Assembly: GCA_003513005.1 (NCBI GenBank)
Contig: DOTD01000032.1
Span: 4,847-68,846, forward strand
Length of the DNA stretch: 64,000 bases
DNA from: Desulfotomaculum sp.
GTDB taxonomy: Bacteria; Bacillota; Desulfotomaculia; Desulfotomaculales; Nap2-2B
Direction of reading: 5' to 3'
Shown: piece by piece, positions 45,802-46,137 of the stretch
How the letters are laid out: each line of letters starts with the position of its first letter
How positions within the stretch are numbered: the stretch's first letter is position 1
Notes under the pieces: generated by a model
The model's database searches: none
What the model saw: the letters and a program-made list of their open reading frames with translations, nothing else
What the model was told of the DNA's origin: nothing
Translations under genes and position numbers: made by a program

Positions 45802-46137
45802 GTGAAAGAAGTCACTGTCACCGTATTCGGAACTGATGCTTTTATGCCGGCATCCAGCTGCTGAGGTCCGTCCACCGGAGACGCATGTTGCGGCTCTGCG
45901 AAGACCATGCAGGAAGAAGCTGAAGCTTTAAATAAATCGCTTGTACAGAGTTTTGGCGAAGCAATCCGCTATGCCTATGTTGATGTGCTAAGCAGCGAGA
46001 TGAATAATTACCCGGAGATTGCGCAAATCCTGAATCGAGTCAGACTACCCCTGATTGTTCTTAACGGTCAACCCCGCTTCCACGGTGGGATTTCAAAAGA
46101 AGTGATCGCAGATGCAGTGGGTGATCTTGCAAAATGA
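45802..46137 (+). CDS. thioredoxin-fold ArsD/YuzD-like protein containing an in-frame TGA (45862-45864)
   Basis: GTG 45802 (SD AAGGAGG 10 nt upstream) is in frame with track ORF 45907-46137. Reads MKEVTVTVFGTDAFMPASSC-[TGA]-GPSTGDACCGSAKTMQEEAEAL...LPLIVLNGQPRFHGG. Confidence 0.55.

What the first reader, a model, noticed from the sequence alone, without database searches (positions are those of the whole stretch)
45802..46137. Thioredoxin-fold ArsD/YuzD-like ORF with a C-U-G-P...CC motif and a SECIS-like stem-loop
The tracked 76-aa ORF (45907-46137) lacks a fold-defining N-terminus. In the same frame, GTG 45802 (SD AAGGAGG) gives MKEVTVTVFGTDAFMPASSC-[UGA 45862-64]-GPSTGDACCGSAKTMQEEAEAL...RLPLIVLNGQPRFHGGISKEV. 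The beta-strand, Cys-cluster, helix ... LPLxxxNG layout resembles ArsD (MCCSTGVCG) and YuzD-type thioredoxin-fold proteins. Twelve nt after the UGA begins a 9-position stem with one A.G mismatch, GGAGACGCA-UGU-UGCGGCUCU (45877-45897), whose loop lies 22-24 nt from the UGA. The C-U-G-P motif is the same as in the hgcA extension.
Basis: partly seen in the sequence, partly recalled or inferred. Interest (0 to 1): 0.75.

Follow-up and report, generated by a model that had tools for sequence, protein, structure and literature searches.

The report
Uncatalogued selenoprotein in an arsenic operon
The annotated 76-residue gene is really the tail of a 111-residue thioredoxin-fold protein whose in-frame UGA encodes selenocysteine, and it belongs to a small, so far uncatalogued selenoprotein family found in arsenic-resistance operons of Desulfotomaculum-type bacteria.

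Summary
GTG 45802 (SD AAGGAGG 45785-91), UGA 45862-64 and the 76-aa ORF share one frame, and the hairpin is at 45876-45898.

The selenoprotein reading holds:
- 38 related loci conserve the 35 upstream codons.
- 28 of them, like the window, carry a stop at this column, and it is always TGA.
- 10 loci have Cys there. In the wider family this is one of the most conserved Cys columns (82/92).
- TGA also ends this gene, so the code is not reassigned.
- The window holds two more UGA-interrupted genes: hgcA (C-U-G-P, a known selenoprotein) and an ArsP-type permease (TPF-U-SCS).

The fold is thioredoxin-like.
- DUF1462/YuzD structure 1XG8 is the best structural match, and the family profile matches it at E 6.6e-8.
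- ArsD is related only remotely. hhalign (41%) aligns ArsD Cys13/Cys18 with U21/C30, putting Cys12 beside C20.
- The protein passes no Pfam or NCBIfam model. The family is absent from a 2026 list of 119 prokaryotic selenoprotein families.

Close relatives sit beside arsR, acr3, arsP or arsM. I infer As(III) binding and hand-off, at about 45%.

The hairpin is conserved, with one covarying pair. Its energy is unexceptional, and the A-C-C-G codons partly dictate it. The SECIS assignment is therefore probable, not proven.

The parts
45785..45791 (+). Shine-Dalgarno AAGGAGG, 10 nt upstream of the GTG start
   Evidence: Sequence read directly.
45802..46140 (+). Full selenoprotein gene: 111 codons (GTG start, Sec21, TGA stop at 46138-40). 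Predicted thioredoxin fold.
   Evidence: 38 loci conserve the whole frame. AF2 model of the Cys homologue P0001 has pLDDT 82.9.
45859..45864 (+). Cys20-Sec21 codons (TGC TGA). The UGA at 45862-64 is read as selenocysteine.
   Evidence: TGA in all 29 stop-bearing sequences (28 loci plus the window) and Cys in 10 loci. The column is Cys in 82 of 92 occupied family representatives.
45876..45898 (+). Candidate bacterial SECIS hairpin CGGAG-A-CGCA / UGU / UGCG-G-CUCUG. The conserved core is 45882-45892. The loop and 3' arm encode Cys29-Cys30-Gly31.
   Evidence: Core pairs are kept in 27-28 of 28 distinct sequences. Pair 34-42 is GC in 17 and AU in 10, with 1 break.
45886..45891 (+). Cys29-Cys30 codons (TGT TGC). 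Cys30 is a family-wide conserved Cys.
   Evidence: Cys in 86 of 107. hhalign aligns it with ArsD Cys18.
46045..46092 (+). LPLIVLNGQPRFHGGI motif: conserved Pro83 (the thioredoxin-type cis-Pro position, inferred) followed by strands b3-b4.
   Evidence: Invariant columns L82 P83 L84 G89 P91 R92 H94 G95 G96. Aligns with VPAIAINGVVRFVG of archaeal thioredoxins and with LPLLLLDGETVMAG of ArsD.
44491..44519 (+). Promoter-like site TTGACA-17-TACAAT (11 of 12) ahead of padR. Likely start of a padR-arsM-target-orf95 transcript.
   Evidence: This is a consensus match only.
44630..44989 (+). PadR-family regulator
   Evidence: Pfam PF03551, E 1.2e-20. Co-occurs with family members in L001, L009, L026, L031 and L037.
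45035..45700 (+). ArsM-like arsenite methyltransferase, with an in-frame loss of about 40 residues
   Evidence: NCBIfam NF008823 scores 247 bits against a cut-off of 263, in two stretches. Comparison with L005 and L006 ArsM.
46207..46494 (+). Conserved 95-aa partner ORF of unknown family, ending ...KPAC-TGA
   Evidence: Co-occurs in L001, L002, L005, L009, L010, L020, L026 and L037.
42946..44402 (-). arsR (43998-44402) and acr3 (42946-44031), the divergent arsenite-efflux unit
   Evidence: Pfam HTH_5 and SBF.
41670..42888 (-). ArsE/MTH895 thioredoxin-like gene (42643-42888) and an ArsP_1-type permease (41670-42632). The permease is interrupted by TGA 42378-42380 at TPF-U-SCS.
37995..39095 (+). 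hgcA with an N-terminal extension carrying C-U-G-P (TGA 38040-42)
   Evidence: NF040863 scores 443 bits against a cut-off of 275. The CU extension of HgcA is described in bioRxiv 10.1101/2022.07.06.499078.

Best explanation
Window 45802-46140 is one gene for a 111-residue selenoprotein.

Shown here:
- UGA 45862-64 lies at a column where the non-Sec homologues carry a conserved Cys.
- The protein has a thioredoxin fold and belongs to a small family of about 174 clusters at 50% identity.
- That family is distantly related to DUF1462/YuzD and more remotely to ArsD.
- Between strand b1 and helix a1 it has a flexible Cys-rich loop: C20-U21 ... C29-C30.
- The window's clade of the family lies in ars operons, next to arsR, acr3, arsP-type permeases, arsM, padR and a conserved 95-aa ORF.

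Inferred:
- SelB and Sec-tRNA decode the UGA, guided by the hairpin 12-36 nt downstream, whose loop and 3' arm encode the second Cys pair.
- The Se/S cluster binds As(III), or a methylated or other soft metal(loid) species, in the way ArsD uses Cys12, Cys13 and Cys18.
- The protein then passes the metalloid to the neighbouring exporter or to ArsM. The selenol would give tighter and faster exchange.

My confidence is about 0.9 in 'real Sec-decoded gene of this family' and about 0.45 in the metallochaperone mechanism. The single figure given is a blend of the two.
For: Frame and start: and the SD.

Homologues:
- Five full-length Cys homologues were found, such as P0001 SSCCCGPS. Many database entries are truncated exactly at M36.
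- 38 genomic loci conserve codons 1-35 in frame.
- The stop at this column is TGA in all 29 stop-bearing sequences (28 loci plus the window). Ten loci have Cys.
- Second codon positions vary least (43 differences against 144 and 126) in codons 1-20.
- The column is Cys in 82 of 92 occupied family representatives.

No code reassignment: the gene's own terminator is TGA.

Sec use in these genomes:
- hgcA C-U-G-P, with NF040863 at 443 bits.
- ArsP permease TPF-U-SCS.
- Sec-type SelD next to the L021 homologue.
- Sec-type ArsM next to the L005 homologue.

Hairpin: core pairs are kept in 27-28 of 28 sequences, with GC/AU covariation at one pair. It outscores all slid registers.

Fold: AF2 pLDDT 82.9 with a disordered loop 17-30. 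Foldseek top hit is 1XG8, with ArsD 3MWH at TM 0.56 and rmsd 3.2. The family profile matches 1XG8 at E 6.6e-8. 26 of 107 members touch Pfam DUF1462.

ArsD mapping: Cys13 aligns with U21 and Cys18 with C30.

Context: arsR, acr3, arsP, arsM or padR is adjacent in about 18 loci.
Against: - No selA, selB, selC or selD in the window, and no tRNA-Sec in the window or the loci.
- Hairpin energy is no better than shuffles (z = -0.16).
- RNAalifold supports only a 3-bp consensus.
- Ala-Cys-Cys-Gly codons give much of the pairing for free. Three of five comparable Cys-form genes (L011, L014, L024) still keep the hairpin.
- ArsD homology is weak: hhalign 41%, and no Pfam ArsD hit in 107 members.
- No ArsA, the known ArsD client, was identified among the window ORFs that were scanned.
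- More distant family members are not in ars contexts.
- The adjacent arsM looks damaged.
- There are no protein-level data.
Confidence: 0.75

Rival explanations
1. Same selenoprotein, different job. It would be a YuzD/thioredoxin-type selenol/thiol-disulfide oxidoreductase. A C20-U21 or U21-C29/30 selenosulfide would cycle to re-reduce ars enzymes or permease cysteines (ArsM, ArsC-type reductases, the ArsP CxC motif). It would not carry the metalloid itself.
For: - The closest sequence and structure relatives are DUF1462/YuzD and the archaeal thioredoxins MJ0307 and MTH807.
- The thioredoxin-position Pro is invariant.
- Most thioredoxin-fold selenoproteins are classed as redox proteins (PMC13188914).
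- A thioredoxin-reductase-like gene lies at 49988-50911.
- Distant family members occur outside ars operons.
Against: - There is no CxxC at the start of helix a1.
- The Cys/Sec residues lie in a long loop of variable length that AF2 leaves disordered.
- The family pattern is a three-Cys site, C-x-C...C, often with extra Cys residues, as in ArsD.
- The island already has a canonical ArsE/MTH895 thioredoxin-like gene.
Confidence: 0.3
2. The UGA is a true stop. The real product is the 76-aa ORF from ATG 45907, or the gene is a decaying pseudogene, and the upstream similarity is a relic.
For: - Public annotations call the 76-aa form (P0003 and about 14 others).
- No Sec machinery is visible in the window.
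- The hairpin is not thermodynamically special.
Against: - All 29 stop-bearing sequences have TGA at exactly this column, never TAA or TAG. Codons 1-20 stay conserved in frame, with the second-position bias expected of coding sequence.
- A strong SD precedes GTG 45802, and none precedes ATG 45907.
- The 76-aa product would lack strand b1 and every conserved Cys.
- Other UGA-interrupted genes of known selenoprotein types lie nearby.
Confidence: 0.04
3. Sec is inserted, but the hairpin at 45876-45898 is not the SelB-binding element. It would be a by-product of the conserved A-C-C-G / T-G-C-G codons, and the true signal would lie in another part of the mRNA.
For: - z = -0.16 against shuffles.
- RNAalifold keeps only 3 pairs.
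- Outer stem pairs are unpaired in 40-55% of sequences.
- Cys-form genes L011, L014 and L024 keep the hairpin.
- Ala (GCN) and Cys (UGY) codons give the C35-G41 and G34-C42 pairs for free.
Against: - The loop always falls inside the 16-37 nt window used for bacterial SECIS prediction. That window is recalled from my own knowledge of bSECISearch, Zhang & Gladyshev 2005.
- The Cys-codon third base tracks the Ala/Thr first base: G with C in 17 of 17, and A with U in 10 of 11. Protein coding does not require this.
- The closest Cys-form gene, L003, has lost the core, and L006 has half-lost it.
- The true register beats all slid registers: 70.6% of cells paired against 36-52%.
Confidence: 0.25

Closest known systems
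DUF1462 / YuzD family (Pfam PF07315; structure 1XG8, S. aureus SA0798)
   Same: - Small single-domain thioredoxin fold of about 110 residues.
- Cys motif right after strand b1, and an [LY]P[LI]...[NG].. strand pair.
- 1XG8 is the best structural match (TM 0.67).
- It is also the only solved structure reached by the family profile at a strongly significant E-value (6.6e-8).
- 26 of 107 family representatives touch PF07315.
   Different: - The window protein does not hit PF07315 even at E <= 1.
- YuzD has a compact CxxC (CASC). This family has a long loop, C-x-C...C or C-U...CC.
- No Sec forms or ars linkage are listed for DUF1462 in the papers I could search.
ArsD arsenic metallochaperone (Pfam PF06953; structures 3MWH, 3KTB)
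   Same: - Thioredoxin fold without a classical CxxC.
- A vicinal chalcogen pair plus a third Cys in the loop after b1.
- hhalign aligns ArsD Cys13 with U21 and Cys18 with C30, which puts Cys12 beside C20.
- LPLLLLDGE resembles LPLIVLNGQ.
- Both are encoded in ars operons.
- Foldseek TM 0.56, rmsd 3.2.
   Different: - No Pfam or NCBIfam ArsD hit. There is only a 15-18 bit match to the ArsD-related VcpD model, whose cut-off is 90.
- hhalign probability is only 41%.
- No ArsA partner was identified nearby. The neighbours are Acr3, ArsP and ArsM instead.
- It uses Sec, which the sources searched here do not list for ArsD.
CU-motif selenoproteins of metal and organometal systems (HgcA N-terminal extension, SaoL, SaoC, SaoB, MbdU; Haft & Gwadz)
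   Same: - A Cys-Sec dipeptide, and database entries truncated at the UGA.
- Metal(loid) context.
- The same C-U-G-P tetrapeptide as the hgcA in this window.
   Different: - Unrelated folds and families.
- None of their NCBIfam models matches this protein.
Small thioredoxin-like proteins of ars and Sao loci: MTH895/ArsE (TIGR00412), SaoT (NF040730), and the Brachyspira 'redox-active disulfide protein 2' selenoproteins Sec.1 and Sec.2
   Same: - Minimal thioredoxin fold, Sec/Cys interchange near the active-site loop, and association with ArsP-type permeases.
- The family profile reaches MJ0307 at E 2e-6 and MTH895 at E 0.035.
   Different: - These are about 75-85 residues long with CxxC-type motifs (UxxC, CxUC, CPCC).
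- The window has its own ArsE-type gene at 42643-42888, which is a different protein.
- The target matches none of these models.

Membership tests
Bacterial selenoprotein gene (Sec-UGA recoding) | In-frame UGA aligned with Cys in homologues | tested here: met
   Cys in P0001, P0002, P0010, P0011 and P0017 and in 10 of 38 loci. Cys in 82 of 92 occupied family representatives.
Bacterial selenoprotein gene (Sec-UGA recoding) | Protein-level conservation on both sides of the UGA, with only TGA at that column | tested here: met
   All 38 loci conserve codons 1-35. The stop is TGA in all 29 stop-bearing sequences. Second codon positions vary least.
Bacterial selenoprotein gene (Sec-UGA recoding) | SECIS stem-loop just downstream of the UGA (loop 16-37 nt away, with a G near the start of the loop). 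This criterion is recalled from bSECISearch. | tested here: inconclusive
   A hairpin is present in the right place and is conserved, with one covarying pair. Its energy equals that of shuffles. It is partly dictated by the ACCG codons and is retained in 3 of 5 comparable Cys forms.
Bacterial selenoprotein gene (Sec-UGA recoding) | selA, selB, selC and selD present in the same genome | not testable with these tools
   None is in the 64-kb window. Indirect support comes from two further UGA-interrupted genes of known selenoprotein types in the window, a Sec-type SelD beside L021 and a Sec-type ArsM beside L005.
Bacterial selenoprotein gene (Sec-UGA recoding) | Selenium found in the protein | not testable with these tools
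   Needs 75Se labelling or mass spectrometry.
DUF1462 / YuzD (PF07315) | Match to the Pfam model at or above its gathering score | tested here: not met
   The window protein has no hit at E <= 1. 26 of 107 family representatives hit at E < 0.01, the best at 2.8e-7.
DUF1462 / YuzD (PF07315) | Same fold, and significant profile similarity to the solved member 1XG8 | tested here: met
   Foldseek rank 1, TM 0.67. Family profile against 1XG8 gives E 6.6e-8.
DUF1462 / YuzD (PF07315) | Compact CxxC after strand b1 | tested here: not met
   The window has C20-U21 then seven residues then C29-C30. 1XG8 has C-A-S-C.
ArsD (PF06953) | Match to ArsD models | tested here: not met
   No PF06953 hit for the target or for any of 107 relatives. 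There are only sub-threshold hits to the ArsD-related VcpD model NF047871, at 12-18 bits against a cut-off of 90.
ArsD (PF06953) | As(III)-binding triad: a vicinal Cys pair plus a third Cys in the loop after b1 | tested here: inconclusive
   hhalign aligns ArsD C13 with U21 and C18 with C30, which puts C12 beside C20. Probability is 41%, E 2.7e-4. The ArsD sequence was recalled from memory and checked against 3MWH, with one mismatch.
ArsD (PF06953) | Encoded next to its client ATPase ArsA | tested here: not met
   No ArsA-like domain was found among the window ORFs scanned. The neighbours are Acr3, ArsP, ArsM and ArsR.
Catalogued prokaryotic selenoprotein families (NCBIfam 20.0; 119 families in PMC13188914) | Match to any curated selenoprotein model, or a listing in the catalogue | tested here: not met
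   No NCBIfam model above E 0.001 for the target, for P0001, or for five distant-clade read-through proteins. The catalogue has no DUF1462, YuzD or ArsD entry.

The most novel reading that the evidence does not exclude
This would be the founding example of a Sec-containing arsenic metallochaperone family. A YuzD/ArsD-like thioredoxin-fold protein would hold As(III), or methyl-As(III) or Hg(II), through a Se-S-S site (C20-U21-C30). It would deliver the metalloid to secondary carriers (Acr3, ArsP-type permeases) or to ArsM, not to the ArsA ATPase.

Its SECIS would be written into the codons of its own second Cys pair. It may work together with the downstream 95-aa protein, which could itself end in a C-terminal Cys-Sec-x-x.
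Probability: 0.35. Interest if true: 0.72.

Novelty: new member of a known kind. Interest (0 to 1): 0.6.

Why it matters
**Annotation.** Every public entry of the Sec forms that I saw is truncated to about 76 residues and called hypothetical. That includes three copies in the cultured Pelotomaculum terephthalicicum JT. One curated model would repair them.

**Biology.** The finding adds a family to the recently recognised set of Cys-Sec proteins linked to Hg and As chemistry in anaerobes. It places that family in the same island as a Sec-type hgcA and a Sec-type ArsP permease. This suggests that selenium is used systematically as a ligand for soft metalloids, not only for redox catalysis.

**A testable question.** ArsD-type chaperones are known only as partners of ArsA. 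An ArsD-like protein paired with Acr3, ArsP or ArsM would raise the question of whether secondary arsenic carriers also receive their substrate from a chaperone.

Tried and rejected
- **Direct family assignment.** Pfam and NCBIfam scans of the read-through protein gave nothing usable, only CCG at E 0.63 and VcpD at E 0.016.
- **Structure of the window protein itself.** The Cys homologue P0001 was modelled instead.
- **Thermodynamic significance of the hairpin.** Not significant.
- **RNAalifold consensus.** It kept only 3 pairs.
- **tRNA-Sec and sel genes.** Absent from the window and from the 38 loci. The one exception is a Sec-type selD beside L021.
- **Rfam.** Only a glmS ribozyme elsewhere in the window.
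- **Literature.** Searches for VcpD, ArsD-like and YuzD returned only unrelated papers. Haft & Tolstoy 2025 is not held.
- **Identity with the Brachyspira Sec.1 and Sec.2 selenoproteins.** Rejected, because those belong to the PF13192 redox-disulfide-2 family.
- **Whole-code UGA reassignment.** Rejected, because TGA also terminates this gene.
- **C-terminal Sec in orf95.** No Cys-form homologue extends past the TGA, so this is left as a note only.

Full report
**1. The observation**

- Read in one frame, window 45802-46140 gives VKEVTVTVFGTDAFMPASSC*GPSTGDACCGSAKTMQEEAEAL...RLPLIVLNGQPRFHGGISKEVIADAVGDLAK*.
- The internal stop is TGA 45862-64. The annotated 76-aa ORF begins at ATG 45907 in the same frame.
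- AAGGAGG (45785-91) sits 10 nt before GTG 45802. Nothing SD-like precedes ATG 45907.
- The stem GGAGACGCA-UGU-UGCGGCUCU is at 45877-97. RNAfold extends it by one C-G pair to 45876-98.

Taken alone the hairpin is not special. Its MFE is -12.6 kcal/mol against -12.2 +/- 2.5 for dinucleotide shuffles, and 73 of 200 shuffles fold as well.

**2. Is the UGA a Sec codon?**

A search of 5.8 billion proteins found two kinds of relative.
- Five are full length with Cys at the column, for example Sporotomaculum P0001 ...SSCCCGPSCNDGCCGS...
- About fourteen start exactly at M36. That is the signature of annotation truncated at a UGA.

A scan of one genome per GTDB species returned 38 loci. They come from Desulfotomaculia, Peptococcaceae, Pelotomaculum, Desulfotruncus, Syntrophaceticus and relatives. 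I translated them in frame.
- All 38 loci conserve the 35 upstream codons.
- 28 loci, like the window, carry a stop at the same column. It is TGA in 29 of 29 sequences.
- 10 loci carry Cys there.
- Close relatives read C-U-G-P...A-C-C-G. A more distant clade reads G-U-G-C-G...G-C-G or G-U-C-S.

Other points agree.
- In seven equal-length close relatives, second codon positions vary least: 43 differences against 144 and 126 in codons 1-20.
- An exhaustive profile search of 1.84 billion representatives found 174 family members at E <= 1e-3.
- Among 107 aligned representatives, the Sec column is Cys in 82 of 92 occupied rows. It forms a conserved C-x-C...C triad with columns 19 and 30.
- TGA also terminates this very gene, so this is site-specific recoding and not a changed genetic code.

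**3. Sec use in this organism**

The 64-kb window has no tRNA at all and no sel gene. The machinery therefore could not be checked directly. Indirect evidence is good.
- The hgcA at 37995-39095 has the N-terminal extension RETC-[TGA 38040]-GPDP and scores 443 bits on NF040863. HgcA with a CU extension is a described selenoprotein (bioRxiv 10.1101/2022.07.06.499078).
- The ArsP_1-type permease (41670-42632, minus strand) is interrupted by TGA at TPF-U-SCS. Its relatives in the SO_0444 family include UxC selenoproteins.
- In related loci, a Sec-type SelD (TSG-U-AAK) lies beside the L021 homologue.
- A Sec-type ArsM (C-U-IGG) lies beside the L005 homologue.

**4. The hairpin as SECIS**

I aligned the 29 Sec forms from the UGA onward.
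- The core pairs at alignment columns 33-43, 34-42 and 35-41 (window 45882-45892) are kept in 27-28 of 28 distinct rows.
- Pair 34-42 is G-C in 17 rows and A-U in 10, with one break.
- Pair 31-45 shows five pair types.
- The true register gives 70.6% of cells paired, against 36-52% for slid registers.
- The loop stays within the spacing used for bacterial SECIS prediction. That spacing is from my own knowledge of bSECISearch.

There are caveats.
- The hairpin is built from the codons of the conserved A-C-C-G or T-G-C-G peptide. GCN, UGY and GGN supply part of the pairing automatically.
- The GC/AU switch separates two clades, so it may reflect few evolutionary events.
- RNAalifold keeps only three pairs.
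- Among the Cys-form genes, L003 has lost the core and L006 has half-lost it. L011, L014 and L024 keep it.

I rate 'this hairpin is the SECIS' at about 0.75.

**5. What the protein is**

The target has no Pfam family. In NCBIfam it gives only a 15-bit match to VcpD, an ArsD-related vicinal-cysteine protein whose cut-off is 90 bits. Distant-clade members match nothing either.

AlphaFold2 on the Cys homologue P0001 gave pLDDT 82.9 and pTM 0.76.
- The fold is the thioredoxin b-a-b-a-b-b-a arrangement: E4-10, H36-54, E55-61, H65-77, E84-87, E90-94, H99-110.
- The Cys-rich loop 17-30 is disordered.

Comparisons with known structures and families:
- The best Foldseek match in the PDB is 1XG8, S. aureus SA0798 of the DUF1462/YuzD family (TM 0.67). 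Ordinary thioredoxins follow. ArsD 3MWH has TM 0.56 and the lowest rmsd, 3.2 A.
- The family profile matches 1XG8 at E 6.6e-8 and the archaeal thioredoxins MJ0307 and MTH807 at E 2e-6 and 3e-5.
- 26 of 107 members touch Pfam DUF1462.
- hhalign of the family against E. coli R773 ArsD gives 41% probability (E 2.7e-4) over 72 columns. I recalled the ArsD sequence from memory and verified it against 3MWH. The alignment places ArsD Cys13 on the Sec column and Cys18 on C30. Cys12 then falls beside C20.

The family is therefore a divergent, uncurated branch of the YuzD-like thioredoxin-fold proteins. Its loop chemistry looks like ArsD's.

**6. Context**

The target lies in a metal(loid) island. In order:
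- hgcA (Sec-type)
- a DUF1295 gene
- a DsbD_TM gene
- a 240-aa ORF
- the ArsP-type permease (Sec-type)
- an ArsE/MTH895 thioredoxin-like gene
- acr3
- arsR
- then, on the other strand, padR, arsM, the target and a 95-aa ORF

A strong promoter-like site precedes padR.

tblastn of these neighbours against the 38 loci shows the window's clade directly beside ars genes.
- Beside acr3: L009, L010, L015, L016, L020, L024, L026.
- Beside an ArsP-type permease: L001, L002, L004.
- Beside arsM: L005, L006, L009.

arsR, padR and the 95-aa ORF are frequent companions. More distant members have unrelated neighbours. No ArsA was identified among the ORFs scanned.

**7. Mechanism**

- Shown: one gene, with Sec/Cys interchange at a conserved Cys, a thioredoxin fold with a flexible poly-Cys/Sec loop, and linkage to ars operons.
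- Inferred: SelB-dependent decoding through the downstream hairpin.
- Inferred: the C20-U21-C30 site, with C29 as a spare, binds As(III) or related soft species and hands them to Acr3, ArsP or ArsM, as ArsD does for ArsA. I put this at about 0.45.
- Main rival (about 0.3): a dedicated selenol/thiol-disulfide reductant of the YuzD/thioredoxin type.
- Residual rival (about 0.04): the UGA is a real stop or the gene is a pseudogene.

**8. Novelty**

The family is absent from Pfam and from NCBIfam 20.0. It is also absent from the 2026 catalogue of 119 prokaryotic selenoprotein families, which lists HgcA, ArsM, SaoT, MbdU and others but has no DUF1462, YuzD or ArsD entry (PMC13188914). It is distinct from the Brachyspira Sec.1 and Sec.2 proteins. 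All database entries I saw are named hypothetical protein.

The kind of thing is well known: a thioredoxin-fold selenoprotein with a CU motif in a metal context. I therefore class it as a new member of a known kind, with interest 0.6.

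Noticed in passing
window 46207-46540 (+): The 95-aa ORF after the target ends ...DQKPAC-TGA-GAC-ACC-TGA-TAA, which could read C-U-D-T-stop. The same PAC*DT** occurs in L001, L009, L020 and L026. Shorter paralogues that lack this tail begin instead with an N-terminal CC or CxC. A hairpin CUGUUUU-GGU-AAAACAG follows at about 46518-46536, and could be a SECIS or a terminator. No homologue with Cys extends past the TGA, and some homologues end without the Cys, so this is unproven.
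   Followed up: partly
window 41670-42632 (-), TGA at 42378-42380: The ArsP_1-type permease is split by an in-frame TGA at the first Cys of the TPF-C-S-C motif (TPF-U-SCS). A hairpin follows 10-30 nt downstream. It scores below the cut-offs of SaoE (127 bits against 325) and SO_0444 (106 against 300), so it may be a further Sec-containing permease subfamily.
   Followed up: partly
window 37995-39095 (+), TGA at 38040-38042: hgcA carries the N-terminal extension MGSLAVEEDTLRETC-U-GPDP. This is the known Sec form of HgcA, and the annotated ORF starts only at 38115.
   Followed up: yes
window 45035-45700 (+): The arsM next to the target lacks about 40 residues between GVDMTPEMI and NLSLDK, compared with L005 and L006 ([41 protein letters not shown]). 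This is an in-frame loss of central Rossmann strands. The gene is probably inactive, or the assembly has collapsed here. It also scores just under the NF008823 cut-off (247 against 263).
   Followed up: partly
L005 6601-7404: The ArsM beside the Pelotomaculum PtaB.Bin104 homologue has an in-frame TGA at ...LISC-U-IGG. This is the known Sec form of arsenite methyltransferase. L006 has CC at the same place.
   Followed up: no
L021 4582-5650 (-): A Sec-type selD (TSG-U-AAKVGP) lies divergently next to the family member in Bacillota MAG253, together with a TusA-like gene.
   Followed up: no
window 42643-42888 (-): A canonical MTH895/ArsE thioredoxin-like gene (TIGR00412, 94.7 bits) sits directly upstream of the Sec-type permease. 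The island therefore holds two different small thioredoxin-fold proteins.
   Followed up: no
window 9135-9294 (+): A glmS ribozyme (Rfam RF00234, 95 bits) lies ahead of the glmS-like gene at 9212-11194.
   Followed up: no
L008, L009, L010 (Pelotomaculum terephthalicicum JT): This cultured strain carries three Sec-form paralogues of the family, and L009 also has three copies of the orf95 family. That makes it a convenient organism for experiments.
   Followed up: no
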